The notes under the pieces were generated by a model. It saw only the letters and a program-made list of their open reading frames with translations, ran no database searches and was not told the origin of the DNA. The position numbers and the translations under genes were made by a program. 64,000 nucleotides of DNA, taken from assembly GCF_030028105.1 (NCBI RefSeq), contig NC_092379.1:9136272-9200271 (forward strand), read 5' to 3'. Origin of the DNA: Mobula birostris. Its lineage: Eukaryota. Every line of letters begins with the position of its first letter. The first letter of the stretch is position 1. This document shows, piece by piece, positions 1,706-64,000 of this stretch.

Positions 1706-1955
1706 CCCAATTATATCCAGCCTCTGAGACTGCCGTTGTTTTCTCTGGACTATTGAGAAGCAGGATTACACAATATACATAATTATTGATGAAAAATATT
1801 TTCACATCAGCAGTTTTAAGAGGTTTGTTTCAATTAATGTATAGAGCATAAGAACCAATGATGCATTTCTAATAAGGTCCCTGGTGACTCATGTTAAGTA
1901 TAAATATAAGAAACTCTGAATGCAGTGTACTGTATGCTGAAAAATTTCAATAGCA
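1706..1955 (+). promoter_or_regulatory. Conserved proximal promoter of GPCR gene A
   Basis: Block homologous to the upstream regions of all other first exons (closest to 63690-63931). Contains CAATTA 1831-1836, TCCCTGGTGA 1878-1887 overlapping TGACTCA 1885-1891, and TATAAA 1899-1904. Confidence 0.65.
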
Positions 1956-2688: not shown

Positions 2689-3590
2689 CTAACTTCGTCG
2701 TGATTGGGGTGATGCTCCGCAGACGATGCGGTCTCTCCAGATGTATCACTGTCTACCTGCTGTCGATGGCTTTGACGGATGTCCTGGTCATTATCACGGG
2801 CGTGATATTAATCCGGATTGTTCCCATGAATTATCCGTCCACCTTCCTGAACTTCTCGCCCGGCTGCAATGTGAATGTCGCGGTAACTCACGCCGTAAGA
2901 GACTGCTCCGTCTGGGTGATGGTGATGTTCACCTTTGATCGTTTTGTGGCAATCTGCTGCCAAGAATTGAAAACGAAATATTCCACGGAACGAACGGCGG
3001 CAGTGGTGATCGGAACGGTTGTTGCCCTGAGCTGTTTCAAAAACATATTTAAGTATTTTATATATGAACCTTCATACAAAACTGAGTTAAAGCCTTGCAT
3101 ACTCAAAACAGCATTTTATACCCCGCCTGGCTGGATAGCATATGACTGGATTGACAGAATTTTAATCCCTTGTCTTCCACTGGTTCTAATATTGCTGTTC
3201 AACTTCATTACCATCAGTTTCATTGTTAGGGCCATGAGAATCCGCAGGCGACTCCAAAGCGGCGGGATCAGCGAGAGGCAGAATGACCCGGAGATGGACA
3301 GCCGCAGGAGGTCCATCGTCCTGCTCCTAAGTATCTCCGGTGTCTTCGTCCTCTTCTGGATAATGGCTCTGGCATCTTTCCTCTATGTTCGCATTGCCAG
3401 TGTCTCATACTTTTCGGGCTCCAATTTCAGTGAATCACATTTTCCGCTGGAAGAAAGTGGTTACGCTCTTCAGTTCCTATGTTCCTGCGCGAACCCCCTC
3501 ATTTATGCCTGGACACACAGTAAGATCAGAGACGAGATAAAACTGGCGCTGAAATATCCACTGACTCTGTTCAGAAAAATTGGTAAATAA
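2689..3590 (+). CDS. GPR139/GPR142-like class A GPCR, gene A, exon 2 (323-aa spliced product)
   Basis: Polypyrimidine tract + CAG acceptor. 7TM motifs: YLLSMALTD (TM2), DCSVWVMVMFTFDRFVAIC (TM3), PCLP (TM5), SIVLLLSISGVFVLFW (TM6), NPLIY and SKIRDEIK (TM7/H8). Open to TAA at 3590. Confidence 0.92.
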
Positions 3591-4019
3591 AAAAAATAAA
3601 CAATTTTTATTCTTGGGGATCAGTCCATGTTGCGAACCTTCTTCATCTAGTTTTCCATCATCTGGACACCCCAGTCGTAAAGCCAACAACATTATGTACA
3701 AGCACACATATGTGCAGGTGAAATGGATGTCTTGCTTGAAGCAGCATCAAACGTACGTAATATCAGATATGCAACATTCACACGGTAAATAAATTAAACA
3801 TACGGTTTGACACAAGAAAGAGTACATTAGAACGTTTTAGTTCAAAGTGATTCAAGTGGTCATAATGCTGGCAAACTATAGGGATGCTTGAACATGTAGC
3901 CGCGGACTTTTAGCCATCCGTATGCACATCCTGCCGATGACAAGAGCGAGGAGATGGTATGGCCTGGAGGGTGGTGATGTCTGATAATGGATGCTGCCTT
4001 CTTCAGGCAGCCGTCGAGT

Positions 4020-11805: not shown

Positions 11806-13900
11806 AGGATAAATTTGTGGATGATACCAAGATTGGGGGTATAGCAGACAGCGAGGAAGACACCTGGACAAGCCAGCGAGCACCGTGAGGGTCATGTTTT
11901 TTGACTTCTTCAGTGCGTTCAACACCATCCGCCCTACTCTGCTGTGGGAGAAGCTGACATCGATGCAGGTGGATGCTTTCTTGGTGTCATGGATTATTAA
12001 TTACCTGACTGGCAGACCACAGTACGTGTGCTTGGAACACTGTGTGTCAGACAGAGTGATCAGCAGCACTGGGGCTCCACAGGGGACTGTCTTGTCTCCC
12101 TTTCTCTTCACTATTTATACCCTGGACTTCAACTGCTGCACAGAGCCTTGCCATCTTCAAAAGTTCTCTGATGACTCTTCCACAGTTGGATGCATCAGCA
12201 AGGGAGATGAGGCTGAGTGCAGGGTTGCGGTAGGAAACTTATTCTGCAGCTTAATGTGAAAAAGACTAAGGAGCTGGTGGTGGACCTGAGGAGAGCTAAG
12301 GTACTGGTGACCCTTGTTTCCATCCAGGGGGTCAGTGTGGACATGGTGGAGGATTACAAATACCTGGGGATACGAATTGACAATAAACTGAACTGGTCAA
12401 AGAACACTGAGGCTGTCTACAAGAAGGGTCAGAGCCGTGTCTATTTCCTGAGGAGACTGAAGTTCTTTTAACATCTGTCGGACGATGCTGAGGATGTTCT
12501 GGCCAGTGCTATCATGTTTGCTGTTGTGTGCTGGGGCAGCAGGCTGAGGGTAGCAGACACCAACAGAATCAACAAACACATTCGTAAGGCCAGTGATGTT
12601 GTGGGGATGGAACTGGACTCTCTGACGGTGGTGACTGAAAAGGGGATGCTGTCCAAGTTGCACGTCATCTTGGACAATGTTTCCCATGCACTACATAATG
12701 TACTGGGTGGGCACAGGAGTACATTCAGCCAGAGACTCATTCCACCGAGATGCAACACTGAACGTCATAGGAAGTCATTCCTGCCTTTGGCCATCAAACT
12801 TTACAACTCCTCCGCTGGAGGGTCAGACACCCTGAGCCAATAGGCTGGTCCTGGACTTATTTCCTGGCATAATTTACATATTATTATTTAATTATTTATG
12901 CTTTTATATTGCTATATTTATACTCTATTCTTGGTTGGTGCAACTGTAACGAAACCCAGTTTTCCTCGGGATCAATAAAGTATGACTATGAATATGATTA
13001 TGACTATCTCGGTCTGCAGAGGGATCTGCATCAGCTTGAAATATGTGCTGCAAAATGGCAGATTGAATTCAATGCAGACAAGTGCAAAGTTTTACACTTT
13101 GATAGGACAAATCAGGGAATGTTTGACACAGTAAACGGTAGGGCATTGAAGAGTGTGGTTGAACAAAGCGATCTAGGAATACAGGTCCATAATTCATTGA
13201 AAATGGTGTCATAGGTAGCTAAGGTCGTAAAGAAAGCTTTCTACACATTGCCCTTCACAAATCTATGTATTTAGTACAGAAGATAGGATGCTATGTTGAA
13301 GTCGTATAAAGCATTGGCGCGGCTTAATTTGGAGTATTGTGCACAGATATAATAAGACCATAGGACCATAATCAGCTAGTTCACAGGAAAATGTAAATAA
13401 GTTTGAAAGAGTGCAAAGAAACATTTCAAAGATGCTGTCGGGTCTCGGGGACCCGCGATTTTAATGCAAGATTGAATAGATTAGGACTGTAATCTTTTGA
13501 GTATAGAATATCAAGAGGATATTTGTGTGAGGTATAAATGGTTATGAGGGATACATATAACGTAAATGCCAGCAGCGTTTTTACACTGGGTGGAACTACA
13601 ACCAGAGGTCAGAGAATGAAAGGTGGAAAATGTAAGGGGAGCATGAGGGAAAACTTCTTCACTCAGAGGGTCACGAGAGTGTGGACTGAGTTTCCAGCAC
13701 AAGTGGTGCATTCGAGCTAGATTTCAATGCGTAAGAGGAATTCGGATCGGTACATGAATATATGGATAGTAGCGATATGGACGGCTATGGCCACGGTGCA
13801 GGTCGATGGCTGTACGCGATTTAAATTGTTTTGGCGTAGATTAGATGAGTTGAAGGTTCCTGTTTCTGTGCTGTATTTCTAAATGTCTCTATGATTCTAT
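11806..13900 (+). mobile_element. CR1 LINE 3' part inserted in the Gypsy LTR and interrupted by Rex1
   Basis: KFVDDTKIGG at ~11810 resumes at 13008 with LQRDL..WQIEFNADKCKVLHF, then ENFFTQRV..VW, ending in a CTATG-type tail at ~13890. Confidence 0.8.
11861..13007 (+). mobile_element. Rex1/Babar-clade LINE, 5'-truncated
   Basis: RT motifs RVMFFDFFSAFNTI, STGAPQGTVLSPFLF, LQKFSDDS, YKYLG and C-terminal TERHRKSFLP. Ends in a (TATGAC)n-like tail. Inserted in a CR1. Confidence 0.88.
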
Positions 13901-20819: not shown

Positions 20820-21041
20820 TCAGGATTGCGCAGTTTATACATTATTCATCAAAAACTATTAATGACAACTGCTTTTAGCTTCGTGTTCAAATTAATTTAA
20901 TTAGCATCGATTAGCAATGATACCTTGGTAACATTCTCCCTGGTGAACGATACTGACTATAAAAATAATACACAGAGAATGCAGTGTATAGGCTACTTAA
21001 AGAATCCTGTATGTATTGGCTACTTAAGGAATCCTGTAGCA
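20820..21041 (+). promoter_or_regulatory. Conserved promoter cassette of GPCR gene B
   Basis: TAATTA at ~20898, TCCCTGGTGA 20937-20946, TATAAA at ~20958, and a 27-bp tandem duplication at 20985-21038. Confidence 0.55.
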
Positions 21042-21111
21042 ATGCATGCGCCTCCAAAGATTTTGTGGTTTGTCGTCTACTATTACACCATTGCAATAAT
21101 CGGCATTCCTG
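21042..21111 (+). pseudogene. GPR139-like GPCR gene B, exon 1 (MHAPPKILWFVVYYYTIAIIGIP+G)
   Basis: Same length and phase as gene A exon 1; donor G|GTAGAG. Confidence 0.85.
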
Positions 21112-21489
21112 GTAGAGTATTGGTGTTGCTTATCAGCCTCCAATATTTTGTGAACTGTTGTATTGCTGATGTATTTACTATTATTGTTGGTTCCTGCTAA
21201 ATGTAGATATTTACCCATTTGCCATTCTCTAAGTATCATTAGTACACTTTAATAGTTTTGGTCTTTTGCTTATACCATTTCAACTGAATATATATCTCTT
21301 TTAATTTTTATATAGTTATAGTGCATTTTAGAATATTTAGTTGCATACTTTTAAACCTTCTAATTTTTTTAATGATTTTCATACGTATCGTATCCTCTGT
21401 TCTCATCCTGATGGTAAGCAGTCAAGTCAAATCGAGGTATTTATGTTCTTCTGTTACTCGTTACATAAACTTGTTTGGGTGCATTCTCC

Positions 21490-22250
21490 AGTTACCTTAT
21501 AAGGTAACCGTAGCCTTCAGCCAGGAGCAGATGCCATCAGGTGGTTGCCAACCTTCACCGAGTGTTTCGACCCTTAACCACGACATTCTCCAGTTGGTGG
21601 GCCGGCAGTGGTGGCCAAATCACTGCCCATCTGCTCCTGGCTTCCAGTTCCCCTCCTCTCACCTACTGCAAATCCAACAAGAGGCTCGCTCTGCCTCTTC
21701 CCCCATCCTACGAGCTGCTTGTTTTTTGCTCCTTTCGTCCAGGCCCAGACCTGACAACAACCGCCATGCTGATTTGGCTGGGAAACCTCTGCAGCCGATC
21801 TCCACAGGGAACAACCGTGCCTGCCATCCCTTGTCTTTATACTCCTGCAGTAAGGGCTGGTACTTCAAGGCCTTTCTCTCGTGGGCCTCTTCCCATCCCT
21901 CCGCCCACGGAATAGTCAACTCAACCAGAATTATTTTCTTGTCTTCAGTTGACCACAGTACAATGTCCGGGCGTAGGGTTGTGTGCACCACATCCGGGAA
22001 CTGCAACCTCCTACCCGCATCGACCCTCATCTCCCAGGACCTGGCCGTTAGCAGCAGATTGGGCTTTGGTTGTTTGGTTACGAAAGGTCTATCTCCCTCT
22101 TTGATGAAGCTGATGGCCTTCCTCAAATCTGTGCCAGCCTTCCTCTTCTTGCACCTCTCCCGCTCTAGTGTGTCAGCAAGAGCCAGAAGCACCTTATCAT
22201 GGCGCCACCTGTATCGTCCTTGAGTTAGGGCTGTTTTACACCCGGACAGT
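21490..22250 (-). mobile_element. HERO/R2-like non-LTR retrotransposon 3' fragment with restriction-like endonuclease
   Basis: ORF 21659-22303: ILSGC..GRYRWRHDKVL, LRPDIVLWS, ILVELTIPW, KALKY, PVEIGCRGF (RHD, PD..E..K REL motifs). Confidence 0.85.
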
Positions 22251-23439
22251 ATGATTTTGAGTATTAAGGTAAAATAAGCATTAAGAATATTGAAACAACT
22301 CATCTGAGTATTCAGCTGGTCATTAACGATAGGGTGACGGCTATTATTATTACATTATTATTAGTTGTTATTATTACATTAAAACGATGATTGCAGTGGA
22401 GGGGATGCAGAGATTTACTGGGATGGTGAGTTTCCCTTATGAGGAGAAACTACATACACTGATTTTGTATTCCTTGAACAGAGAAGACTGAAGGGATGCT
22501 GGAGGTAAAAGTAGGATAGACATTACCCCATAGCAGAAGTAGTACAAAAAAGAGGGTGTAGATTTGAGGAAAATTATGAGGTCTAGAATAGATCTGCGGA
22601 AGATCATTTTCAGTTTCATGTTTGTTGGAGACTTGAAAACACTGCCCGAGAGGATAGTGGCGACAGGAGCCCTCGCAGCATTTAAGAATGGCCCAGTTGG
22701 GCATTTGAATTACCAAGTCATAGCAGTCTACAAATTGCGCTGGTGATTGGAAATAGTGCGGAGGAGTGTCTGTTGGTTGGCACAGACGTAGTTAGTTTAA
22801 GGACCCGACTCCCTCATCTACAGCTCTAAATGAACGAAGTGTTATTTTTAAAGGGATGAATTAACCGATTTTGAGGACCTGGTGGAACTGAAAGTTTTTC
22901 ATTTGCGTGATCTTCAGACAGGTCATTTAACATATAAGTAGATCAACGTAGTAGTGAGGAAAATAGAATTGAGGATATAATGTTTCTGCGGCAGAGGAAG
23001 TAAAGTTGAGGCAACTAAGTAAGAAGTCAGGGGCACGTTAGATCAAAAGATATCGTGTTCAATCTTTACCGTATGAGAGGGATCTTAACCTATTTGATAA
23101 CAGTGAGACAGAATTTATCATTGTGCTTAAGCTGAACATGTTCTCAAGTTATTGTATCTTCCGCCTGACTGGAGCAAGGAGGTGAACGAATGACTGGGGC
23201 GGGAGATTAGTTGCCATTTTACCTAGGCAGCAGAAAGTGTAGAAAGATCATGCAGGGCAGGCTGGGAGGTTGGTCCGCTTGACGGACTGATTTGCATTCA
23301 TAACTCCTCTCATGACATTGTGATGGTGAGCAGAGCACTTCACAACATCATGAGCTATAAGAGCACTATTAGGACATTCAGCTCATAGGCTCAGCACATT
23401 GAAGGGCAGCCGATCTGTCATTTAATCATGTGTCAAGTT

Positions 23440-24180
23440 ATGAAAAGGGGAAGTACAACGAGATCTAGGTGGCCTTGTTCATCAGTCACTGAAAGTAGGC
23501 ATGCAGGTACAGCAGGCAGTGAAGAAAGCTAATGGGATGTTGGCCTTCATAACAAGGAGAGTTGAGTATAGGAGAAAAGAGGTCCTTCTGCAGCTGTACA
23601 GGGCCCTGGTGAGACCACACCTGGAGTACTGTGTGCAGTTTTGGTCTCCAGATTTGAGGAACGACAGTCTTGCTATTGAGGGAGTGCAGCGTAGCTTCAC
23701 AAGGTTAATTCCCGGGATGGCGGGACTGTCATATGTCGAAAGATTGGAGCGACTGGGCTTGTATACACTGGAATTTAGAAGGATGAGAGGGGATCTGATT
23801 GAAACATATAAGATTATTAAAGGATTGGACACGCTAGAGACAGGAAACATGTTCCCGATGTTGTGGGAGTCCAGAACCAGGGGCCGGAATTTGTGAATAA
23901 GGGGTAGGCCATTTAGAACGGAGTTGAGGAAAAACTTTTTCACCCAGGGAATGTGGATCTGTGGAATGCTCTGCCTCAGAAGGCAGTGGAGGCCAATTCT
24001 CTGGATGCTTTCAAGAAAGAGTTAGATAGGGCTCTTAAAAATAGCGGAGTGAAGGGATATGGGGAGAAGGCAGGAACGGGGTACTGATTGTGGATGATCA
24101 GCCATAATGACAGTGAATTGCGGTGCTGGCTCGAAGGGCCGAATGGCCTACTCCTGCACCTATTGTCTATTGCCTATTGT
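23440..24180 (+). mobile_element. CR1 LINE 3' end, well preserved
   Basis: QVQQAVKKANGMLAFI..LYRALVRPHLEYCVQFWSP..LEFRRMRGDLIETYKI; 3' UTR ends in a (CTATTG)n-like tail. Confidence 0.9.
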
Positions 24181-25749
24181 GTGATGAAGTCATTCATTAA
24201 CCTTTAACAGAGACAGGCGATTGAACCAACTTGTCCATGCGGACTAGAGCATTCTCCCTGCAAGTCTAGGTGCCATACCGGTCCATGTTCCTATCTAAAT
24301 GTACCTTAAACGTTACAGTTATACCGGCCTCGACAAGCTCCTCTTACAGCTTATTTTTGGTACTCAATACCCTCGTGCAAAGAAGTTACCTTTCAGATAT
24401 CTTTTACATCTCTCTCCTCTTAACTTGCATCCGTGCTCTCTGGTTGTGGATTCTCAAACACCAAGGAAATGGCAATTAAAGTCCACCTTATGCATTCTTC
24501 TCATGATGCTATAAAGTTGTATGAGCCATTCCTCATTCTCCTGCGCTCCAGGGAATAAAACGCCAGTGTGGACAACCTCTCCTCAAAAATAAGAGATTTC
24601 AGTCCAGTCCACATCCTCCTGAATCTCCTTTACACCCTCTCCAGCTTGACAATGTATTTCTTGTAACAGAGTATCCAGAACTGTATATAATACTTTAAGT
24701 GCAGACTCACCAACATTTTATGCATTTACTCCTAAATTTGATGCCCTAACTTATGTAGACTAGAGAACAACCCTTTCTTTACTACATTGTCCACTTGTGT
24801 GTCAGCTTTAGGCGAACTGTACTCTTATACCCTTGGGTTCTTCTGTTCTACAACACTAGTCTGTGTCCTGTCAGTCACTGTAAAAGTCCCACTCTAGCTT
24901 ATCTGCATAAAATGCATTAGGTCACACTTTTCTAAGTAGACATCAGTTTACCATTCCCCTTTCTTCCTCACTAATCAAAATCTCTCCGCAATCCGTTGTA
25001 ACCCATCAAATTATCAACAAGACGGTCTAATCTAGTATCCTCAAAACTCTTCTTAATTGCGCCATGTACATAAACCTCCATATAATTTACATAAATATTG
25101 AATAATCACAGATGGCTAAATTTTTGTTCAACTCTATTTCTCTCCCACTTCTCCCTATAACTACATTATTAATCAAAAACAGATCATCTCTGCCTTAAAT
25201 ATACCCAAGTAATTGGCTACAAGCTTCAATAACAACGAATTTCACAGATTAAATAACTACTGGAGTAAAAATTCCTCATCATTTGCTCTAAAGACATCCA
25301 TTTACATGGAAGCTCTGACCTGAGATTCAATTCTTCTACTAATAGAAACCTTCTCTCCAATCCACCCTGATCAGGTCCTGGCGATTTCAATGAGATGCTC
25401 CCCCGCCATTCTGAACTCCGTCAAGTATATGTCCAGAGACATCAAAGTCTCCTCCTGGTTTATGTTTTCATTCCTGGGATTACTCTGGTAAAATTTCTCT
25501 GGACTCCAGGGCCAGCAGGTCCTTGCTTTGATAAGTAGCCCAAAGTCTCTCATATTATTACGCATATGAACTCACCACATATTATAAGGCCATAAGACTA
25601 TGTAACATATGAGCAAAGTTAGGACACTCGGTCCATTCAGTTTGTTCTGCTATTCCATCATTATCTTGTCTTCTACACGTAACCTTTGATGCCATAGTGA
25701 ATCAAGAACGTATCAAACTCCGCGTTAAATGTACTTGATGAATTGACCT

Positions 25750-26800
25750 CTGCAGCCATGCTTTGGCTAAAGAAAATCCTTCTTCTCTCGGTTCTAAATG
25801 GACAGTACCATCAAATACTTCCCACATGTTAACACTTTCACTCCCCTCATAGTTCTCCTGAACTTCCTCTGGACCCTTTCCAATGTCAGCACATTTTGGA
25901 TAAAGGGCCCGAAACTGCTCACGGTAGTCCAGGTGCGGTCTGACGAATGCCGTAAAGCCTCTGCATCACATCGTTGCACTTATATGATCGTGCTCTCTAA
26001 AAAACGTTGACATTACATTTCCCTTCCTTACCACTAACACAACCTGCCAGTAAACCTTTAGGGTATTCTGCGCAAGAACTCCTGAGTCCCTTTGTACCCC
26101 TGATTTTAGAATTTTCTCTCTGTTTAGAAAAAAAACGGTTTTGCCATATTCCTTTCACCAAAGTGTAGGACCATACATTTCCACACACAATATTCCATTT
26201 GCCAATTCTTCCAATCTGCCTAAGTCCTTCTGCAGACACCCTTGTTCCTCAAAGCTGCATAACCCTCCACATATCTTCATACCGTCTGCAAATTTGGTCA
26301 TGAAGACAGCAATAACTTCATCCAAATTGTTGACGTACGACGTGATAGGAAGCGGTTCCAACACCGACCCCGGCAGAGCACCACTAATTAGAGGCAGCCA
26401 GCCAGAGTAGGCCCTCTTTATTCCCACTCTTTGCGTCCTGCCAGATAGCTAATCTTTTATCCCTACTAGTAGCTTTACTGTACCACCACGGGCTCTTTTC
26501 TTGTTGAGCCGCATCCTGTATAGTATCTTATCAAAGGTCTTCTGAAAAATCCGAGTAAATAACATCATCCAATTCTCCTTTGTCTATTCTGCTTATAGTT
26601 CCTCAAAGATTTGGAACAGATTTGCCAGGAAAGCTCTCCCCATACGAAACCATGCTGACGTCGCCTATTTTGTCATGTGGCCTTAAGTATCCCGAAACAT
26701 CATCCTTAATAATGGACTCCAATATCTTCCCAACCAGAGAAGTCAGACCAACTAGCCTATAATTTCCTTTCTTCTTCCTTCCCTTTTCTTAAATGGTGGA
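25750..26800 (-). mobile_element. Degenerate CR1 LINE RT region
   Basis: SGALPGSVLEP..YVNNLDE..KFADGMKICG..LQKDLGRL on the minus strand. Confidence 0.75.
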
Positions 26801-27403
26801 GGAACATTTACAATTTTGAGCTCCTTTGGTCCTTCCAGTCACGCTGCCCCAGCAAACCCATAAACCGATTAACCCTAACCTAACCATAGGACAATTTACA
26901 ATGATCAATTCACCTACCCAGTAAATCTTTGGAATGTGGGGAAAATAGTGGGACCAGGAGAACACCTACGGGATGGAGGTACGTACGGTCCTTACAGAAG
27001 AGCTTGGAATTCAATTCCGAACTCCGAACGCCCGAGCCTTCTGCTATGCTGTGCGCCGTCAAGTAAGAAAGATTATCTGAGATTTCCACTGTGTTACTCG
27101 TTTTTTCACACATAGTGTATGCTCACACACGCACAAGATAAGACACAAACCAGTCTCACACCCGAAACACAACACGCACAAATACTAGCACACACAGGCC
27201 CACTCACTTTCCTCATCTATTTAAGCTAACGCACACACTCCATCGCATAAAAATACATGGCGCACATCATACACCCACAAATATAAACGCACCGCACTTT
27301 ATCTCCCTCCTCCACATCCTTCCCCTCCACCCCCCGCATACACAAGCTCACTCCGTTGTCACGCCACTGACACTGAAACCCCCTCCGTCTTGCTCTGTTG
27401 CAG

Positions 27404-28304
27404 TTAACTTGACCGTGATTGGGGTAATGCTTCGCAGACGATGTGGCCTCTCCAGGTGTATCACTGTCTACCTACTGGCGATGGCCGTGACAGATCTCCT
27501 GGTCATCTTCACGGGGGTCATTTTAAACCGGATTGCTCCCATCAATTTGCCATATAATTTCTTGACCATCATTCCGGCCTGCATTGTGAACTGCGCTGTA
27601 GTTTACGCAGTAAGGGAGTGCTCCGTCTGGGTGACGGTGATGTTCACGTTTGATCGCCATGTGGCTATTTACTGTCAAAAACGGAAAGCAAAGTATTGCA
27701 CAGAGCGAACTGCGGCTTTGGTCATCGGGACTGTTATTATCGTCAGCTGTCTCAAAAATGTATTTTATGGTTTTATATATGAAGCCCCACATAAAACAGA
27801 GCCTACACCGTGCATCATTAAGTCATCGTATTATACCTCGCCTGTTGGATAACATTTGACTGGATCGATATCATTCTAACCCCTTGTCTGGCATTCGTTT
27901 CAATTTTGCTGCTCAATTTGTTAACCATCAGACACATTTTAAGCGCCATCAGAATCCGCAGGACACTCCAGGGCGGCGGGAAGGGTAATGTACAGAGCGA
28001 CCCCGAGACGGACAGCCGCTGGAAGTCTATCGTACTGATACTAAGTATCTCGGGCATCTTCATCCTCTTGTGGTTGTTGGTAGTAATAACTTTCCTTTAT
28101 ATTCGCTTTGCCAGTGTCTCTTATTCTGCAGGATCCAATTTCAAGAACTCGATTTTCGCTTTGGAAGAAAGCGGATATGCGCTTCAGTTCCTCTGTTCCT
28201 GCGTGAACCCATTTATTTATGCAGGGACACAGAGTAAGATCAGAGACGAGATAAAGTTGGGGCTGAAATATCCACTGACGCTCTGTGATAGATTGCTAAG
28301 TTAG
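27404..28304 (+). pseudogene. GPR139-like GPCR gene B, exon 2 with a single 1-bp deletion (pseudogene or assembly error)
   Basis: CAG|TT AAC acceptor gives GIPVN. ORFs 27409-27852 and 27906-28304 join into a full 7TM protein if one base is restored at ~27844 (CCT G-T TGG ATA versus paralog CCT GGC TGG ATA). Confidence 0.88.
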
Positions 28305-30742
28305 ACAACTTTTTTCATTGGGAACAGTTTATGTTGCAAATCAGCCTTATTTACTTTTTTTTATCAATAGGGTGGACTTTGATTTGTATTACGTCTCTAT
28401 AGCCGAGGAGTCAAGGAACGGCATAATAAAAATCAAATTCCAATGTATTGATCTATTGCCAAGTACATGGATGCACAGATCCTTTGGAAACCCTTTTTTC
28501 AACAAGATTACAGGCACATAGGGCCAGACTGTGAATTGCTTTACTGATGCCCTGTGTTCCCAGGTAGAGCGAAAACCTTTGTTTTGCAAGCTGCGCATAA
28601 GATGATTTTATTTTAAGAGCATACTCAGGCAGTGCTAGGGCAAACAATGATAGAATTCAGAATAAAGGACGCCGTGGTCAAGGAGATCAGTTCAGAATAG
28701 AGATGAAGAGGATTTTTTTTTTTAGCCTGGGGTGATGAAACTATGCAATTCATTGCAACTGGCTGATGGGAGGGCAAAAGACATTGGGCATATTTAAAGC
28801 AAGGGTTCATAGATTCTTGATTAGTAAGTGAGCAAAAGGTTACGGGGAGAAGGTAGGAATAATGGGGTCGAGAAGGAACATAAATCAGCCATAATCGAAA
28901 GACCGAAGAGACACAACTGCTAAAATTGACCAATTCTGCTTCTATTTCTTACGCTCTTCGGAAGTGTTACACTTACAGATAAAGTGCAGTACACAAGAAA
29001 TTCTGGAGGAACTTAGCAGGCCAGGTAGCATCTACGGAAAGGAGTAAACAATCGATCTTTCGGGCGCGCTGAGGTCTTTTATCAAGATTCGTGAAAGGAA
29101 AGGTCTCGGCCGAAATGTCAACGGTTTACTCTTTTCCATAGATGTGGTCTGGCCTGCTGTGTTCCACCAGCAGTTTGTGTGGATTACTTTGATTACCAAC
29201 ATCTGCATAGTTTCTCTTGTTTGAGATAACGTGCAGTGCAGGTTAATAAATGAAGTACAAGGGACTCGACGAGGTAGATGAGAGATCAAGAGCTGGTCGT
29301 TATCATATAAGAGACCAGTTGAAGATTCTGACAACAGCGGGGTAGATGGTGTCCTCAATTCCTCGGAATCGTACTGTCATGCTTTTGTATCTTCTGCCTA
29401 ATGGAGAAGTGGAGAAGAGAGAATGTCTGCAATGAATGTCTGCTTTGATTCCGTCGTCCCCTTGACATAGGCTGCGAGGTGTAGGCAGAGTCCGTAGAAA
29501 CGTTGGTGATTTCCCTGATGTACTGAGCGGTATGCCGAGGTTTCTGCACTTTCTGTTTGCTGTAGCTGACGAAGGAATTACGTTCCGGTCGGATGATTTC
29601 TATAGACTATTAATAAATAATAGACAGGACCAAATGGGCCATAACAACTTTAATTAGATCATGTGAAAGTATAGGCGCAAATGTACGCCCTTGACCATGG
29701 CGTCAACGTCGTTGCACTGGCGCTTGGTGATTCCCACTCCTGGGAACATGGAGCATCCAATACTCTTTACCTCAGCACTGTTGATATAGATAGTTACTGC
29801 CGCACAAGCGTCAGGATCTTGAACAAAAAGGGACTCCACTAACAACATTGAGATAATAATCTTACTTTAATCAACCAATAAGCTCACTTTAAGGAATCTT
29901 TATCTTCTAATCTCCTGTTCTCTTTACTTATTGCTATTTATTTATATTTGCATTTGCGCAGTTTGCTGTTTTCGGGACTCTGATTGATATTCTATCGATC
30001 CTGTTATAGATGCAATTGAACGGATTTACTCAGCATACCCACAGGAAAGCGAATACCAGGGTTGTATTTGTGATAGATACGTACTTTGATAATAAAAATT
30101 ACTTTCACTTATTTTATTTTTTACTTTGACAGGAGCGTGTGTACCAACCATGCCCGACCCCCCTTCTGAAGAAAAAGACTAGCCTTATCCTTTTTCTGAC
30201 ATTGGAATAAAGACTATTTCCCCCACTGTCATAGATTGCCCAGATTCGCAATTTTTCACACAAAACATATACTAACAGCTTGAATTGTACAAAAATATAG
30301 CAGACAGATCACAATTCACCTAACGTGAAGAAATTCAAGTCTACTGGAGTACGATGCGGTTAAAGTGGTTTCATGGTGTTTTTTATGATGTAGCGACTAG
30401 GGTTCTGCAAGTTGTGACAAGATCCCAGTGGATGAAGGAGGTAGCTGTTTTTGAACTTGGTGGTTTAGGACTTTAGGCATCTGTAACTCCTGCCCAATGG
30501 TATCTGTTAGAGCATGGCATGGCCTGGCTAGTGGGGATATTTGATGATAGATGTGCTTTCTGAATGCCTGATGTAGATGGTTAGGAATGGAGTGCTCGTG
30601 AAGTATTGGGTTGTGTCTATTAATATTTGCTGTTTTATTTCGGTGGTGCTACAATTCAACATGTCATAGGGAACATTTTGTGATCGGTTCGGATAGGTTC
30701 AGCAGTACATCTGTAGAAGTTTGTTCATGTAATCAGTGATTT

Positions 30743-33979: not shown

Positions 33980-34185
33980 CATCCTTTCAGAAGGCCTTAT
34001 GTGTTTAGAAGTGGGCTTACACAATCTTCACGATTATTCATTAAAACCGTTAGAGGCATCAGCTGTTTTAAGTTGCTTTATCAATTAATGTAAGTAGCAA
34101 CAAAACAATTTTGCCTTCCTAATATACTCCCTGGGGACTGATGTGGATGCAATCTAACAAGCTGTGATTCAAATTGCCAATTATT
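33980..34185 (+). promoter_or_regulatory. Promoter cassette in front of the orphan GPCR exon 1
   Basis: Homologous to 1720-1955; CAGCTG at ~34060, CAATTA 34082-34087, and TCCCTGGGGA 34128-34137 (EBF/Olf-1 consensus core). Confidence 0.55.
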
Positions 34186-34255
34186 ATGCACAGAGTTTCA
34201 CAAATCTTGTGGTTGCCTAGTTGTTATTGCATTATTGAAATTATTGATAGTCCTG
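34186..34255 (+). pseudogene. Orphan, degenerate GPR139-like exon 1 (MHRVSQILWLPSCYCIIEIIDSP+G)
   Basis: Exactly 70 nt from ATG to G|GT, aligns with the other first exons, and is followed by homologous intron sequence. No matching exon 2 before 40634. Confidence 0.8.
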
Positions 34256-34611
34256 GTACAATACTGCTATTGATAATTAATCCGAAAAATGTTGTGAAAT
34301 TTTGCAGCACTGCCGTGCTTTCCATTATTGCTGTTTTAATTCAATTGTAGATATTTCACTTCTTTGCTATTCTCTCCGTCTCGTTAATATCCATTAATTT
34401 TTATCTCTCATTGATTGTATCATTTGAGTGTTTTACACCTTTCAAATTTAATTTCTTTATCGTGCATTTTTATCACAAATAGCCTTAAAGTTTATTCCTT
34501 ATACTACTAATAGGCAACAAATTTGATATATATTGTCATAACGATGATAGTAGCAACTTCTATTCTTTTGTCACTTGTATGAGTAGTTCAACAAAAATGT
34601 CACCAAATCTA

Positions 34612-40439: not shown

Positions 40440-40633
40440 GTTACTGATTATGCAGAAGTATTCATTAAAAGAATTAAATGCACCAGCTGCTTTTAGCTGC
40501 TTTTTTGTAAATAACGTCATTAACTTAAATAAATAATGACGCCCACATAATATTTTTCCAGGTGACTAACGTTGGGTATAATTATAATAAAGTTTGAATG
40601 CAGTGCATTGGACACCAATAGCTTTCAACAACC
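40440..40633 (+). promoter_or_regulatory. Conserved promoter cassette of GPCR gene C
   Basis: CAGCTG at ~40484, TCATTA 40517-40522, TAATGA 40534-40539, TTCCAGGTGA 40556-40565 (78 nt before the ATG) and TATA-like TATAATTATAA. Confidence 0.55.
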
Positions 40634-40703
40634 ATGCACTCACCGCCAAAAATATTGGGCTTGGTCGTTTACTATACCATCATCGCAGTTATCGGCATTC
40701 CTG
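40634..40703 (+). CDS. GPR139/GPR142-like GPCR gene C, exon 1 (MHSPPKILGLVVYYTIIAVIGIP+G)
   Basis: ACCATG start, 70 nt, donor G|GTAAAG. Confidence 0.9.
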
Positions 40704-41388
40704 GTAAAGTATTACTGTTTAATGTCAATATGCAAAATATGCAAAATTGTATAACTGCTGTGGTTGCTGGTATTGTTACTTTCTAAGTGTTGAAGTCATT
40801 TTATCCCATATGTTTCTCCCATTCTTATTGGTACATTATGATCTTTTGTTTCATTGGCGCTACTAATGTAATTGGACACATTTTTCCTTTAAATTTTATT
40901 TTTATAGCACATTTTGTCACAAATACTCGCTAGATTACAGCATCACAGCGTAGTAAATCGCATGATATAATTCCAAAATTGAGTAAGTCTATTTCGACTG
41001 TTAAGTCAATATAAGTCACATTGAATACTGTGAAGGGCAAGATTTAACACAGAGTTCTGCTGCTTTAATTATTTGTCACATACTTAGAATCATTCACTCA
41101 CCAAACGAAACACAAAAACATGGGGGGAAAAAAAACACCAGATCAATTGTATTTGCGCCACCTATACGCCGAGACACACTAGCACACATGCGCGCGTACA
41201 CAGATCATATAAGCAGATGCACCGCATGCAACACCAAGACCCACACACAACCACTATCTTCCTGATTTGCAGCTTGCGCCACACAGACATACCAAACATA
41301 AACGTAACCGTAACACACATGCGCCGCTCATAAACATGCACAATTATCACTCTGTACCTCAGTCCACACACACGCTCACAGCATTATC

Positions 41389-41391
<3 letters not shown>

Positions 41392-41422
<31 letters not shown>
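41392..41422. repeat. (CA)n microsatellite near the 3' end of the gene C intron
   Basis: CA run ~45 nt upstream of the acceptor. Confidence 0.9.
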
Positions 41423-41423
<1 letters not shown>

Positions 41424-41467
41424 TGTCGTTAAAATTGACGCACTTCCTTGGTCTTTCTCTATTTCAG

Positions 41468-42369
41468 CTAACTTGGCAGTGATTGCCGTGATGCTCCGCA
41501 GACGATGCGGTCTTTCCAGATGTATCACTGTCTACCTGCTGGCCATGGCGGTGACGGATCTTCTGGTTCTTATTACGGGCGTGGTATTAAACCGGATCGT
41601 GCCCATGCTTTTACCCTTCAACATTTTGACCATCGTTCCGGGCTGCAATATGAATTTAGTGCTAGCATTCATCATAAGGGACTGCTCCGTTTGGGTGACT
41701 GTGATGTTCACATTTGATCGGTATGTTGCTATTTGCTGCCAGAAATTAAAGATGAAGTATTGCACGGAGCGAACAGCCATTGTGGTGATCGGAACGGTTA
41801 GTGCTATCAGCTGTTTCAAAAATGTAGTTAATGTTTTTATATATAAAGTTCCAACTAATAATGAGCCCACACCATGCGTGCATAAAGCAGAGTATTATAC
41901 CTCACTTGCCTGGATAGCATTTGACATGATGGAGAGCATCTTAACCCCATGTTTGCCATTCTTTCTAATTTGCTTGTTCAATTTCCTGACCGTCAGACAT
42001 ATTTTGAGGGCCATTAGAATCCGCAGGAGACTCCATAACGGCGGGAACACTGAGAATGAGAATGACCCGGAGGTGAGCAATCGTAGGAAGTCTATCGTCC
42101 TGCTGCTAAGTATCTCGGGCATCTTTATCCTCTTGTGGCTGATACCGCTGGTAACCTTCCTCTACATTCGCATTGCCGATGTCGCTTACTTTACAGGCTC
42201 CAATTTCAGTGAATCAGTTCTTCCTTTGGAAGAAAGCGGTTTCGTGCTTCAGTTCTTATGTCCCTGCCAGAATCCATTTATTTATGCTGGGACACAGAGT
42301 AAGATCAGAGACGAGATAAAGCAGGGGTTGAAATATCCACTTACTCTCATTAATAAATTACGGCAATAA
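41468..42369 (+). CDS. GPR139/GPR142-like GPCR gene C, exon 2 (323-aa spliced product)
   Basis: TTTCAG|CT AAC acceptor; intact DCSVWVTVMFTFDRYVAIC, PCLP, SISGIFILLW, NPFIY and SKIRDEIK; stop at 42369. Confidence 0.92.
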
Positions 42370-44565: not shown

Positions 44566-44635
44566 CTGCATGCGCCTCCAAAGATCTTGACGTTGTTTAT
44601 TTACTATTCTATCATTGCAGTCATCGGCATTATTG
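44566..44635 (+). pseudogene. GPR139-like GPCR gene D, exon 1 with ATG>CTG (LHAPPKILTLFIYYSIIAVIGII+G)
   Basis: Aligns with the other first exons and the donor G|GTAAAG is intact, but the start codon is CTG. Upstream cassette TCTCTAGTGA at 44488-44497. Confidence 0.85.
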
Positions 44636-47456
44636 GTAAAGTATTGGTATTTATTATCCATCTGCCGAAAGTTGTGAATGGTCGTGCCTCTGATGTATTT
44701 ACCGGTATTGTTGGTTTCTCTGTACTATAGATTTTTACCCATTTGACAGTCTCCAGGTCTCGTTACTACATTTTGATAGTTGTCGCCCTTTACTGCACCC
44801 TTTCAATTGCACATTTATCACTTTAAATTCTATTTATTTATAATGCATTTTATCACAGTTAGTTGTAGAGTTTTTATTTCTTTAAAGCTTCTAACCTTCA
44901 ATGGTTTTGATAATTATTATATCATATATCCTTAGTTTGAAGGTAAACACCCAAGTGAAATCGGAGCAACTTCAATTGTCATTTTATTATTTATGACGTG
45001 CGTTAGTCAAGATTTAGTATCAAATCCACGTTAGGAGTTTAAAATGTTATGGAGAGTATCCAGATTGTCAGTAAGTACACAATCGTAACTTGATGCGTTA
45101 ATTTTGTCCATACCTTTCTAATTATATCACTGTAAATGGGAGTGAATTGCATTGGCAAGAGTGCAAAAAGAATTCAAAAGGTTCTGTGCTAGTGAATTTC
45201 AGATATGAGGAAAACTAGATAAATGAGTTTGTATTGCATGAGCAGAAAGGGCGAAGGAGATTGTGATGGGGGTATAAGTTGGACAGACATTTGGAAAATA
45301 TTCCTCATGTGGCAGAATCACGTTATGGTGGATGGTTTAAGTTTAGTGTAAAGGAGAAGAGCTTTAGAATGGATCTGAGAAAGAGCACTTTCAGCTTGTG
45401 GTTGGTTGGAGGCCGGAACAGCATTACCCAGAGGGTAGTACTGGCAGGCACACCCACAGCATTCAATGCATATCGAGTTGGGTATTTGAATTGCTGCGAC
45501 GCAGAAATCTACAAAACATACTGATGATTGGTAATAGGGGCCCTGTTAATCGGCCTGAACGTGGTGGAATGAAGTATTAATTTCCAACGTGTACAACTCG
45601 GAATGAGTGAAGTGTTTTTTTTTCACTGTATTTCCTGATTTGGATGAAATTGTACAATTGGCTTATTTTTGTCACAAGTTCCAAGATACTTGTCTGTAAC
45701 GACTGTTTTAAATACACCCAACAACTTTGCCTTCACACTCCTCTGTGAAAAGAGTCTCCACAGATTCCTCCTCGTCTGTTTTAAATGTACTCCAACTTAT
45801 TTGTTGGCTGCAGTTCCGATACCGGGATTAATTATCGTCAACATATCTACTCAATCCAGACTTCTCACTATCTGATAGGTTTCAATGTGACTACGCCAAC
45901 CCACCAATCATTTTTAACTCCTTGGAGCACAGGCTCAGATACAGCAAACATTCTTCACAGGTTAAACTTTTCACTCCTGGAATAAAGGATTCTCTGCATC
46001 ATATGCCGTGCCAGTTTATTATATCATTAATACGGGGCCAGAAATTGCTCACAATATGCAGAATATGATTTCCCCAAAACGTTATAAAGCTTCAGTAGAA
46101 TAGCTTTACTTTTCTATCCCAGTTCTTTCAAAATGAATGCTTACATTGCATTTACATTCTTTTCTGCCCACGCAACCTAACAGATAAACTTGAGAGAACC
46201 TTGCGCTAAAAATCCCAACTCATTTTGCAAAACGGAGTTCAGATCTTCTTTTTCGCTATATAGGAAACATTCTACAGCGTTATTCTTCCTACCGAATTGC
46301 ACAACTCCACATTTCACTGCATTGTACTCCATCTGCCTATTCTTTGTCCACTCCCCTAGCTCCTAACTCTCTGCAGGCTCCCTGTAACTGGAACACAAGC
46401 TGTTCCTCCACCATTCTTGTTATCTTCAAACATGATCACCATAAGAACATCCATTTCGGTCTCTAATTACATGCAGCCAATCTGGAAGGCACACCACACT
46501 GACTTTTCCTATTCAGCCAATGCAGCACCCGTGCAAGTACTACTTCTAACATGATGGTCTCAAATTTGGTTTTTTAGCCTTTAATGCACCATTGTCAAAG
46601 GTCTTTTGAGAATCCAAGAAAGAGAGATCTACCGAATCTCTTTTATCTAACCTGCTTTTTACGTCATTAAGGATTTCTAAATGATGGTTAAGAAAACTAC
46701 ACTGAAAAAAGTATAGTTAAAGAAACTATACTGTCTATTGCATTTTATTATGTAGTTCCAAGTACTCTAAACTTCCATCCTCAGTAACTGACTCATCTAG
46801 GTACGGAATTGTTAAAGGATGCAAGGGCTTATAGTGTGGAGCTTGTGGTTTTCTTTTCCAGTCATCCTTGGCCACAGGGGAGGGTGCTGGGATGATATCA
46901 GAAGAAGAAGAATAGATTCCAGTGTTTAAATAAGGAGGGAACGGCGCACCATGTAATTCCAGAGCAGACAGACGGCATTCACTGATGTGACGATTGTATT
47001 TCAGCTTCTTCTCCAACGATCTGGGGAAATAAAAAAAAAATCTCAGCGATTCAAAGTAATAACAAATGAACAAAGTTGTTAAATCAATGAAAAAAAAACA
47101 ATTACAGAAGGTATTATTGTTCCTCATTTATTTCCACAGAAAGGTACTCCCCAGTAAGATTCAGAGTGAAGAGTGTTGCAACATCACAATGCAGTCAATC
47201 ACATGATCCTGAAGTACCGTACAGTTTGTCAATTTACGGTGAAGTGTCAAAGCATAAAGGGTCGCACTGAATAACGGCAACTACCAGGTCTGTTTGTGAT
47301 TTCCATTATTTTACGTTTTTGTCGAATGCACATACATATACGCAGAAAAGAGAAGCACACCGCGGATACTAAATATGCACGCACAATTGTCACACCACGC
47401 ACACACACACACACAAATATACACACACTCACTGCTTCTGTCTTCCTCGATTACAG

Positions 47457-48344
47457 CTAATTTGACCGTTATTGTAATACTGTTGTGCAGACGATGCGGT
47501 CTCTCCAGATGTATCACTGCCTACTTACTGGCTATGGCGGTGACGGATCTCCTGGTCATTATCACCAATGTGATATTAAACCGAATAGCTCCGATGGATT
47601 TCCCGTCGGGTGCCTTGACCACCATTCCGGCCTGTAATGTGAACTTCATGCTAGGTTACGCGGCAAAAGACTGCTCCGCCTTGGTGAAGGTGATGTTCAC
47701 CTTTGATCGCTTTGTGGCTATGTGCTGCCAAACATTGAAAACAAAATATTGTACGGAGCGAACGGCGTCTATTGTGATCGGAACGGTCTGTACAGTAGAT
47801 AGTCTGAAAAATATATTTATGGCTTTTATATATGAATCTGCACATAAAACAGACCCCGGACCATGCATAATTATGTCAACATATTATACCTCGCCTGGCT
47901 GGATGGCAAACATTTCAAATCCCTGCCTGCCATTCGCTTTAATTTTGCTGTTTAATTTTTTAACTGTGAGACCCGTTGTAGTGACCATTAGAATTCGCAG
48001 GGGACTCCAGCGCGGCGGGAACAGTGAAAGGCAGAACGACCCGGAGACGGACAGTCGCATGAAGTCTATTGCCCTGCTCCTAAGTATATCAGGTATTCTC
48101 ATCTTTTTGTGGATGCTTGAACTGATAACCTTCCTCTACATTCGTATTGCTGACTCCGCTTACTTCCCAGGTTCTAATATCAGAGACTTGATTTTCCCTC
48201 CTGGAAGAAAGCGGATACGCGCTTCAATTCCCATGTTCCTGTGTGAACCAGTTTATTTATGGAGGGACCCAGAGTAAGATCAGATATGAGATAAAGCTGG
48301 GGCTGAAATATCCACTGACTCTCATTAATAAAATAATAAAATAA
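47457..48344 (+). pseudogene. GPR139-like GPCR gene D, exon 2 (disabled)
   Basis: TTACAG|CT AAT acceptor. Lesions: 5-codon deletion in TM5 (WMA-----NISNP), extra C at ~48200 shifting the frame before TM7, NPxxY>NQFIY and SVW>SAL. Ancestral stop at 48342-48344. Confidence 0.88.
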
Positions 48345-49199
48345 ATATATTTATTCTTTTTAAGCAATTAATGTTGCAAATCTTCCTCATCTTCCTTCCT
48401 GTCTTCCTGCTTGCTCATTATAAAGTTGAAATCAAAGCTAAGGTCGTGATCGTTGACGAAAGTACAGGTACATGCAGCAGCATTGCAGGCGTAAAACATA
48501 GACTCAGTAACTTGTGTTTTTGATTGTCACATGTTTGAACGTACAGTCCAAGGTTTTTCTTTGCATGTCATCACAAGATTACGTTAATTCAATAATGCTT
48601 TGAAGTTATACAAGTTAACACGATGGTAGAATACAGAATAAAGTGCAGTGTAGGTCAACAAATAAAATGCGTCGCTCATTGGAGGTAGAGCTTGTCTTTA
48701 TTGTATAAGGGCTCTGTTCAAGAATGTGATAACATTGAGACTGAAGCAATCCCTGAGCATTGTGGTATGTACTTCTTCTGGCTCATAGAAGGAGAAAGGA
48801 GAGACAAAGTCTCGGTCTGTGGCGTCTCTGATTATGTTGTCTGCTTTTCAGAGACAGCGAGGTGTCGATAGATAGGAGTTCGACTGCATGATGTAATGAG
48901 CAGTGTCTACAATTCTCTGCGGGTTTTTTTTTTTGATTCGAGATCGGAGCATTGCTAGCAGTTCATGAGCACCAAAGGTGTCACGCCCAATTTCATTCGC
49001 TTGGTGAGAAAATTAACATGAGACTTTCATGTTTGTAACGTCCGTATGGATACTTCCTCCGAGGAACTAGAAGCTTTCATCCTTTCCCATTTCAGCATTG
49101 TTAATGTAAACAGGAGTAATGCACCAACACTACCTCCATACCACTCCGGAAGTCAATAATCAGCTGTCTATTTTCCTGATAATACGCAACGTTCACAGC

Positions 49200-63689: not shown

Positions 63690-63931
63690 CCAATTATATC
63701 CGGCCTCTGAGACTTTGTTCGAATGAGAAGCAGGATTACACAATATATATAATTACTGATGAAAAATACATATTCATATCAGCAGTTTTAATTTGTTTGT
63801 TTCAATTAATATATGTAGCATAATAGCCGATGATGCCTTCCTATCTAATATGCTCCCTGGTGACTAATATTAGGGATAAGTATAAGAATCTCTGAATGCA
63901 GCGTAGTGTCTGTTGACAAGTGTCAATAGCA
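63690..63931 (+). promoter_or_regulatory. Promoter cassette of GPCR gene E (closest to gene A)
   Basis: Long near-identical stretches with 1706-1955; CAATTA 63803-63808 and TCCCTGGTGA 63854-63863. Confidence 0.65.
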
Positions 63932-64000
63932 ATGCATGGAGTTCCACGAATCTTCGAGTTGGTCGTTTGCTATTGCATCATAGCGCTAATCGGCATTCCT
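63932..64000 (+). CDS. GPR139-like GPCR gene E, exon 1 (MHGVPRIFELVVCYCIIALIGIP; runs off the window)
   Basis: 23 codons aligning with gene A exon 1; the donor site and exon 2 lie outside the window. Confidence 0.85.
   Translation, partial: MHGVPRIFELVVCYCIIALIGIP

What the first reader, a model, noticed from the sequence alone, without database searches (positions are those of the whole stretch)
1831..1910. Olfactory-receptor-like promoter grammar (homeodomain + O/E-like site) in front of every paralog
Seen: TCCCTGGTGA at 1878, 20937 and 63854, TTCCAGGTGA at 40556, TCTCTAGTGA at 44488 and a consensus TCCCTGGGGA at 34128. The motif starts 78 nt before the start codon in A, C, D and E (78+27 in B). 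A homeodomain-type site lies just upstream (CAATTA 1831/34082/63803; TCATTA 40517 and TAATGA 40534; TAATTA ~20898/44449), often with a CAGCTG E-box. Established: paired Lhx2-type (TAATTG/TAATGA) and Olf-1/EBF (YTCCCYRGGGAR) sites characterise vertebrate OR promoters. Inference: these genes may be wired into the olfactory sensory neuron programme. Caveats: shared spacing also follows simply from duplication, and in gene A the site overlaps an AP-1 TGACTCA.
Basis: partly seen in the sequence, partly recalled or inferred. Interest (0 to 1): 0.75.

Follow-up and report, generated by a model that had tools for sequence, protein, structure and literature searches.

The report
Olfactory-type promoters on shark orphan receptors
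Six copies of a large, unstudied shark-and-ray receptor gene family share a compact promoter whose best-kept element resembles the EBF site used by smell-receptor genes, so these receptors are possibly an overlooked set of smell sensors, though no expression data show it yet.

Summary
All six motifs are at the stated coordinates. They precede exon 1 of a tandem two-exon class A GPCR family: the elasmobranch 'probable GPR139-like' expansion, not odorant receptors. Only A and C are intact. D has CTG, not ATG, at +78; the perfect-consensus copy (34128) belongs to an exon-1-only relic.

The O/E-like 10-mer ranks 1 of 172 windows for conservation among the six promoters (0.83 vs 0.59; P 0.001-0.005 as a pre-specified site, 0.34 as a post hoc best window). 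It lies 21 nt before a TATA-like box. Every promoter has two or more homeodomain hexamers, at shifting positions (4% of AT-rich background). A mis-predicted horn-shark protein reads through its own promoter colinearly and fits the same site and TATA spacing. A zebra-shark model does not fit at the motif.

Against: five of six copies carry GTGA instead of GGGA, intact gene C has two mismatches, EBF also works in B cells and other cells, and no expression data were reachable.

Verdict: a constrained promoter, EBF site likely (about 0.6), olfactory expression about 0.4. If true, cartilaginous fishes have a fifth, much larger smell-receptor family.

The parts
1780..1785 (+). Gene A distal homeodomain-type hexamer TAATTA (-98 from the motif)
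1808..1820 (+). Conserved block CAGC(A/T)GTTTTAAG; an E-box only in some paralogs; function unknown
   Evidence: conservation peak at -70 to -58, (0.72 in A-D)
1831..1836 (+). Gene A proximal homeodomain-type hexamer CAATTA (-47)
   Evidence: second conservation peak, 0.79
1878..1887 (+). Gene A O/E(EBF)-like site TCCCTGGTGA, 1 mismatch to TCCCNNGGGA; overlaps AP-1-like TGACTCA at 1885
1899..1905 (+). Gene A TATA-like box TATAAAT, 21 nt after the motif start
   Evidence: Y-K codons at the same place in shark models P0043 and P0126
1917..1925 (+). Conserved TGAATGCAG block, likely the transcription start region (inferred)
   Evidence: 0.94 identity in A-D; Q-C codons in P0043
1956..2025 (+). 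Gene A coding exon 1 (MHGVPR..., very short N-terminus plus start of TM1)
2689..3590 (+). Gene A exon 2; spliced frame 323 aa with no stop; 7tm_1
20860..20964 (+). Gene B promoter: TAATGA 20860, TAATTA 20898, TCCCTGGTGA 20937, TATAAAA 20958
20985..21038 (+). 27-nt tandem duplication in the gene B leader
21042..28298 (+). Gene B: exon 1 21042-21111, exon 2 27404-28298 with a frame break near 27844 (pseudogene or assembly error)
34038..34260 (+). Relic P34: TCATTA 34038, CAGCTG 34060, CAATTA 34082, perfect-core TCCCTGGGGA 34128, decayed exon 1; no TATA, no exon 2 found
40462..40583 (+). Gene C promoter: TCATTA 40462, CAGCTG 40484, TCATTA 40517, TAATGA 40534, TTCCAGGTGA 40556 (2 mismatches), TATAA 40577
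40634..42369 (+). Gene C: exon 1 40634-40703, exon 2 41468-42369, intact 323 aa
44396..44515 (+). Gene D promoter: CAATTA 44396, CAGCTG 44427, TAATTA 44449, TCTCTAGTGA 44488 (2 mismatches), CATAAAT 44509
44566..48343 (+). Gene D: CTG at the start position, exon 2 47457-48343 with a frame break near 48200; likely pseudogene
63750..63890 (+). Gene E promoter: TAATTA 63750, CAATTA 63803, TCCCTGGTGA 63854, degenerate TATA region
63932..64000 (+). Gene E exon 1; the rest lies outside the window

Best explanation
Each gene of this ray GPR139-like receptor cluster carries an inherited compact promoter whose best-kept element is likely an EBF (Olf-1/COE) site, set 21 nt before a TATA-like box with likely homeodomain sites upstream, and this module would switch the receptors on in olfactory or similar chemosensory neurons. 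Shown: the layout, its conservation above the local background, HD hexamer turnover, and the family's identity. Inferred: that an EBF dimer binds the degenerate site (about 0.6); that an Lhx2/Emx2-type factor binds the hexamers (about 0.5); that transcription starts near 1924-1930; and that the cell is a microvillous olfactory neuron sensing amino acids or peptides (about 0.4).
For: Motif identity 0.83 vs mean 0.59, rank 1 of 172 windows, P 0.002 for 10 random columns. Neutral simulation on the local background tree gives P 0.0005-0.0015 for that identity, and P 0.00025-0.03 for 7 or fewer total EBF mismatches, depending on the assumed ancestor. Fourfold-degenerate sites of the same paralogs are only 0.55-0.69 identical. 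Positions 1, 4, 7, 9 and 10 never vary and both spacer bases do. The change at position 8 in P34 (G) and the inferred change in horn shark (A) break the AP-1-like TGACT but keep or improve the EBF match. The P34 copy equals the 10-nt core of the Omp Ebf probe, and a functional enhancer site carries GAGA (PMC5608512 supplement). All six promoters have at least 2 HD hexamers, against 4% of 990 AT-rich segments; P 0.006 in neutral simulation. Horn-shark model P0043 is colinear with the ray -78..-1 region (p 5e-5; 26.9 bits vs 12.4 for the best of 342 shuffles), with S-L-E on the motif codons and Y-K on the TATA box. The family behaves like a chemoreceptor repertoire: 1134 clusters at 90% identity, tandem copies, 2 of 6 copies shown intact, no N-glycosylation sequon in the first 25 aa in 0 of 121, variable pocket-facing stretches. 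Its nearest solved relative, GPR139, responds to aromatic amino acids. O/E-like sites also occur in all 39 V1R promoters studied (PMC3247230).
Against: As a post hoc best window the motif is not exceptional (P 0.34 with six genes, 0.92 with A-D). With A-D alone the pre-specified P is 0.04, and a 3'-flank 10-mer reaches 0.90. Without E the motif ranks 2 of 172. Five of six ray copies have T at position 8 where the consensus has G. Intact gene C has 2 mismatches, while the perfect copy sits in a dead relic that lost its TATA box. In P0043 the motif codons are not better kept than the rest of the stretch (P 0.17), and S and L are six-fold degenerate, so the DNA is only compatible with the site. 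Zebra-shark model P0126 is colinear from -23 but reads R-F-K on the motif codons (2 changes each): spliced in at that point, or the site is lost. The HD total is only marginal in simulation (P 0.054), and the -39 site marks one clade (B, C, D), so it is a single event. EBF is a B-cell factor and acts in many cell types (PMC4312928, PMC4512700). Catshark ORs are not expressed in the nose, and no GPCR is among the 50 top genes of the 'brain and olfactory epithelium' library.
Confidence: 0.42

Rival explanations
1. The EBF site is real but drives the genes in another EBF-expressing cell type, such as B-lineage or other immune cells, other sensory cells, or central neurons; the receptors would then be immune or tissue sensors.
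For: EBF1 is a key B-cell factor and co-occurs with E2A-bound regions (PMC4312928). CANNTG boxes lie 61-72 nt upstream in 4 of 6 promoters. COE factors bind the same motif in muscle and neuronal lineages (PMC4512700). Large birth-and-death GPCR clusters also occur in immunity (recalled).
Against: The E-box is missing in intact gene A and in E. The partner sites that persist in all six are homeodomain-type hexamers, the pairing reported for OR promoters (PMC3247239, PMC12547500).
Confidence: 0.22
2. The shared motifs are simply inherited: the six promoters descend from one ancestor that happened to hold an EBF-like 10-mer in AT-rich DNA, and only the general core promoter is constrained.
For: All copies are homologous and alignable over about 120-200 nt. 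Best-window permutation P is 0.34 (six genes) and 0.92 (A-D). The first 150 nt of the intron is still 0.58 identical, against 0.55 for the promoter columns outside the named blocks. The dead relic keeps the best site.
Against: The site was named for its EBF likeness, which shuffles give in only 0.3-1.4% of cases, and it coincides with the top conservation peak. Neutral simulation P is 0.0005-0.03. Spacing to TATA and start codon is kept in a horn-shark gene.
Confidence: 0.2
3. The conserved block is bound by another factor, for example a bZIP/AP-1-type protein on the overlapping TGACTNA or an E-box/ZEB-type protein on CAGGTG, and the EBF likeness is incidental.
For: T at position 8 is kept in 5 of 6 ray copies. 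TGACTNA follows in A, C, D and E, and windows shifted 1-5 nt to the right score 0.76-0.80. C holds CAGGTG inside the motif.
Against: Exact TGACTCA occurs in 1 of 6 and CAGGTG in 1 of 6. B, P34 and the horn-shark model break TGACT yet keep the left half TCCC.
Confidence: 0.16

Closest known systems
Mammalian odorant-receptor proximal promoters (O/E + homeodomain sites, TATA in a subset; PMC3247239, PMC12547500)
   Same: One O/E-like site and HD hexamers within 200 bp of the inferred start, not juxtaposed (33-45 nt gap); TATA-like box present; tandem receptor cluster.
   Different: The host genes are not ORs. The promoter abuts coding exon 1 (78 nt), whereas mouse OR starts lie on average 4.2 kb from the start codon. 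The right half-site is GTGA in 5 of 6. No binding or expression evidence.
Greek Island composite Lhx2/Ebf enhancer motif (PMC5608512)
   Same: Both site types are present; degenerate Ebf halves are tolerated there (TCCTTGGAGA).
   Different: In the composite probe the HD hexamer follows the Ebf site after 1 nt, and the spacing is strict. Here the HD hexamers lie 33-45 nt upstream, so this is not a composite motif.
V1R promoters (PMC3247230)
   Same: A non-OR chemoreceptor family whose promoters carry O/E-like sites near the start.
   Different: Different receptor family; the V1R-specific CNTCTGG-type motifs were not tested here.
GPR139/GPR142 and the fish/coelacanth subtypes named GPR210A/B (PMC6504862)
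   Same: Best solved-structure match of the family profile is GPR139 (E 1e-13). Relatives occur in salamanders, coelacanth, teleosts, a caecilian and amphioxus.
   Different: Far more distant than an ortholog would be, and expanded to more than a thousand clusters in elasmobranchs. Which GPR210 subtype is the ortholog was not determined.

Membership tests
OR-type O/E + homeodomain promoter | O/E site matching TCCCNNGGGA within 200 bp of the start | tested here: met
   0 mismatches in 1, 1 in 3, 2 in 2 of 6 copies; consensus from PMC4312928; no position-weight matrix was available
OR-type O/E + homeodomain promoter | O/E site better conserved than its flanks | tested here: inconclusive
   Rank 1 of 172, pre-specified P 0.001-0.005, but best-window P 0.34; only six paralogs
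OR-type O/E + homeodomain promoter | Homeodomain (Lhx2/Emx2-type) hexamers near the O/E site | tested here: met
OR-type O/E + homeodomain promoter | Binding by EBF and Lhx2/Emx2 | not testable with these tools
   Needs EMSA or CUT&RUN
OR-type O/E + homeodomain promoter | Sparse expression in olfactory sensory neurons | not testable with these tools
   No RNA holder listed; catshark tissue atlas supplement unreadable
Greek Island composite Lhx2/Ebf motif | HD hexamer directly next to the Ebf site at fixed spacing | tested here: not met
   Gap of 33-45 nt upstream vs 1 nt in the Sfaktiria probe
Odorant receptors (OR), V1R/ORA, T2R, TAAR | Pfam 7tm_4/V1R/TAS2R match or OR signature motifs | tested here: not met
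   0 of 38 members match these Pfam families at E 0.01; 0 of 121 carry any of four OR motifs, patterns recalled; no OR or TAAR among the best 60 of 265 PDB matches
Elasmobranch 'probable GPR139-like' expansion | High identity and shared clade with annotated members; short MH... exon 1 | tested here: met
   80% to Hypanus and 71% to Mobula proteins; 5-row batoid clade 100/100 inside the 47-row family clade 100/93
GPR139 or GPR142 proper (orthologs) | Orthology by tree and synteny | tested here: inconclusive
   Profile E is only 1e-13 to GPR139 vs 4e-55 to a salamander paralog, which points away from orthology; true GPR139/142 were not in the tree; synteny not testable

The most novel reading that the evidence does not exclude
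Cartilaginous fishes have a fifth olfactory receptor family: a GPR139/142-related class A lineage that expanded to a hundred or more genes per genome and took over the EBF + homeodomain promoter programme of smell neurons. It would outnumber their V2Rs and overturn the view that sharks and rays smell with only a few dozen receptors.
Probability: 0.38. Interest if true: 0.92.

Novelty: new variant of a known kind. Interest (0 to 1): 0.68.

Why it matters
Sharks and rays are reported to have very few olfactory receptors: 34 V2R/OlfC genes and 4-9 in each other family in the catshark, with ORs not expressed in the nose (PMC10116579). That sits oddly with their large olfactory organs. A family with 1134 sequence clusters lies unnoticed under the automatic name 'probable GPR139'. 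The promoter gives the first cis-regulatory clue to where these genes act, and it makes the question testable with existing catshark RNA data, one in situ experiment and a 250-nt reporter. It would also show that the EBF/homeodomain programme can be captured by an unrelated receptor lineage.

Tried and rejected
No genome is held for the window, so paralogs outside it could not be aligned. The prokaryote genome scan found nothing. No RNA holder listed. Three same-species contig sets of unknown tissue did not cover the gene, apart from one bin at 2872-2988 in two runs, which cannot be interpreted. A region search with the P0043 extension gave only 2 candidates. Of 342 proteins held, 13 had an N-terminal extension before an MH-type exon 1. 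Seven were tested for colinearity over 26 codons: 2 were colinear (P0043, P0126) and 5 were not (P0112, P0068, P0092, P0121, P0056). The other six were not tested that way, most being too short. The region upstream of -27 codons in P0043 was not significantly colinear (p 0.06-0.84). The catshark atlas supplement could not be read; it may hold tissue expression of this family. Rejected: OR, V1R, T2R or TAAR identity of the genes; a composite Lhx2/Ebf motif; the E-box as a shared element; single HD hexamers as evidence; counting the six copies as independent.

Full report
Observation. The six upstream regions align over about 120-200 nt, so they are homologous copies of one promoter. The start codon lies 78 nt after the motif start in A, C and E. 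It lies 105 nt after it in B because of a 27-nt tandem duplication. In D the codon at that place is CTG. CAGCTG occurs in 3 of 6 promoters and TGACTCA in 1 of 6. A further block, TGAATGCAG, lies about 18 nt beyond the start of the TATA box (0.94 identical in A-D), and I infer it to be near the transcription start.

The genes. They are two-exon class A GPCRs (7tm_1). A and C splice to open 323-aa frames, with dN/dS 0.39 between them. B and D have frame breaks in exon 2, the copy at 34128 is a decayed exon 1 with no exon 2, and E runs off the window. A protein search gave 1134 clusters at E 0.001 or better among 2219 candidates. All 120 listed are from sharks, rays or skates, mostly named 'probable GPR139'; about 75 are horn shark by hand count. 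The best are Hypanus (80%) and Mobula (71%), so the window is likely from a ray. The family profile's best solved relative is GPR139 at E 1e-13, and no OR or TAAR is among the best 60 of 265 matches. None of 38 members matches an olfactory, vomeronasal or bitter-taste Pfam family, and 0 of 121 carry any of four recalled OR motifs. In a 60-row tree (58 chosen from the 309 proteins then held, plus A and C; midpoint root; no true GPR139/142 or OR included), a 47-row family clade (100/93) is sister to salamander proteins (99/99). Coelacanth, teleost, caecilian and amphioxus relatives fall outside it. Not all 47 rows were named by a call.

Is the site more than inheritance? The O/E-like 10-mer has mean pairwise identity 0.83 against 0.59 for the aligned region and ranks 1 of 172 windows. 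The HD block at -47 and a block at -70 are the next peaks. Fourfold sites of the same paralogs are 0.55-0.69 identical. As a pre-specified site, P is 0.002-0.005 by column permutation and 0.0005-0.0015 by neutral simulation on a tree built from the surrounding columns. Against this: as the best of all windows P is 0.34; with only A-D it is 0.04 pre-specified and 0.92 post hoc; without E the motif ranks second; and a 10-mer in the 3' flank reaches 0.90. The fair reading lies in between. The site was chosen for its EBF likeness, which shuffles of these promoters give in 0.3-1.4% of cases, and it falls on the top conservation peak. Positions 1, 4, 7, 9 and 10 never vary and both spacer bases do. 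However, five of six copies have GTGA, intact gene C has two mismatches, and the perfect copy sits in the dead relic. That copy equals the core of the Omp Ebf probe, and a functional enhancer site reads TCCTTGGAGA (PMC5608512 supplement), so degenerate sites can work; whether GTGA does is untested. One HD hexamer means little (37% of AT-rich background segments). Two or more occur in 6 of 6 promoters against 4% of 990 segments, with P 0.006 in simulation, 0.054 for the total count, and 0.002 for random hexamer sets. The proximal hexamer sits at -46 to -51 in A, E and the relic and at -39 in the clade B, C, D, which looks like one turnover event.

Other species. No shark DNA was reachable, but some mis-predicted proteins extend upstream of the true start and so translate their own leader. 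Of 342 proteins held, 13 had such an extension and 7 were tested over 26 codons. Horn-shark P0043 is colinear with the ray -78..-1 region without indels (p 5e-5; 26.9 bits against 12.4 for the best of 342 shuffles). It reads S-L-E on the motif codons (0, 0 and 1 changes needed, implying A at position 8) and Y-K on the TATA box. This shows the layout predates the shark-ray split in at least one gene. It does not show extra constraint on the motif (P 0.17), and the DNA is inferred from degenerate codons. Zebra-shark P0126, a 3'-broken model, is colinear from codon -23 including the TATA codons but reads R-F-K on the motif. It was either spliced in there or has lost the site. The other five were not colinear.

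Mechanism. The most likely reading is a compact TATA promoter in which an EBF dimer binds just upstream of TATA and a homeodomain factor binds 33-45 nt further up. That matches OR promoters, where 78% of 314 hold a conserved O/E site within 200 bp, HD sites are enriched and TATA boxes occur in a subset (PMC3247239). It also matches V1R promoters (PMC3247230). It is not the juxtaposed enhancer composite. The step to olfactory neurons rests on this pairing plus the family's behaviour: huge tandem expansion, pseudogenes, a minimal N-terminus, and kinship to a receptor for aromatic amino acids (PMC8557429). EBF alone does not specify the cell (PMC4312928, PMC4512700). Catshark olfactory neurons are all microvillous and do not express ORs (PMC10116579), so the receptors would have to be in microvillous cells. 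I put the EBF site at about 0.6 and the full olfactory reading at about 0.4.

Novelty. The promoter grammar is known; its presence on this family is not reported in what I could search. Searches for GPR139 with shark (1 and 4 papers, none on this family by title), 'coupled receptor 139' with shark, GPR139/142 evolution, GPR210 and broader queries listed no description of the expansion or its promoters. The library lacks most subscription journals. The only naming of related subtypes I found is GPR210A/B in fishes and coelacanth (PMC6504862). The whale-shark paper speaks of a paucity of GPCRs in cartilaginous fishes (PMC8455134). An earlier unchecked note of this scan on another genome describes the same family as candidate chemosensors; it is not independent support.

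What I saw of each paper: passages of PMC3247239, PMC3247230, PMC12547500, PMC8455134, PMC6504862, PMC8557429, PMC10116579 (with abstract), PMC4312928, PMC7804114 and PMC4512700; passages plus supplementary files 22 and 27 and part of file 7 of PMC5608512; passages and section 11 of PMC11979771, whose supplement could not be read and may hold the decisive tissue expression; term searches without relevant hits in PMC10620051 and PMC7677710. The OR peptide motifs and the remark on immune GPCR clusters are recalled and come from no call.

Noticed in passing
window 3627-3637, 28332-28342, 42402-42412, 48372-48382: A 10-11-nt element AT(G/T)TTGC(A/G)AA lies about 30-40 nt after the stop codon in A, B, C and D (0.90 identity), as well kept as the promoter site; possibly a 3' UTR signal.
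   Followed up: no
window 1808-1820 and paralogs: Conserved block CAGC(A/T)GTTTTAAG about 70 nt upstream of the O/E-like site; it ranks first when E is left out. Its factor is unknown; it is not the AACTTTTTAATGA motif of OR enhancers.
   Followed up: partly
window 1917-1925 and paralogs: TGAATGCAG contains an ATG in frame with the receptor, followed by a stop in A, C, D and E; the two shark models have V at this codon. Likely start-site region rather than an upstream frame.
   Followed up: partly
P0043 residues 16-44; P0126 residues 24-46: Mis-predicted N-terminal extensions in public gene models translate the promoter and leader, which allows promoter comparison across species from protein databases alone.
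   Followed up: yes
P0216, P0271, P0274 (salamanders); P0226, P0237, P0262; P0254, P0268: Three separate bony-vertebrate lineages are all labelled 'probable GPR139'; the salamander one is sister to the cartilaginous-fish expansion.
   Followed up: partly
window 21116-21434 vs 44640-44963, and 22418-22756 vs 45184-45537: The introns of B and D share alignable segments (66-70%), marking them as sister copies.
   Followed up: no
window 11894-12843, 21659-22303, 23482-23896, 30907-31269, 34571-35155, 49353-49676: Fragments of LINE-type elements fill the spaces between genes and the long introns; one matched RVT_1, the others are judged by eye.
   Followed up: no
window 2872-2988: Contigs of runs X1 and X2 cover only this bin of exon 2 at 85% likeness or more (depth 21-26); this may be a transcribed paralog or an unrelated match.
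   Followed up: no
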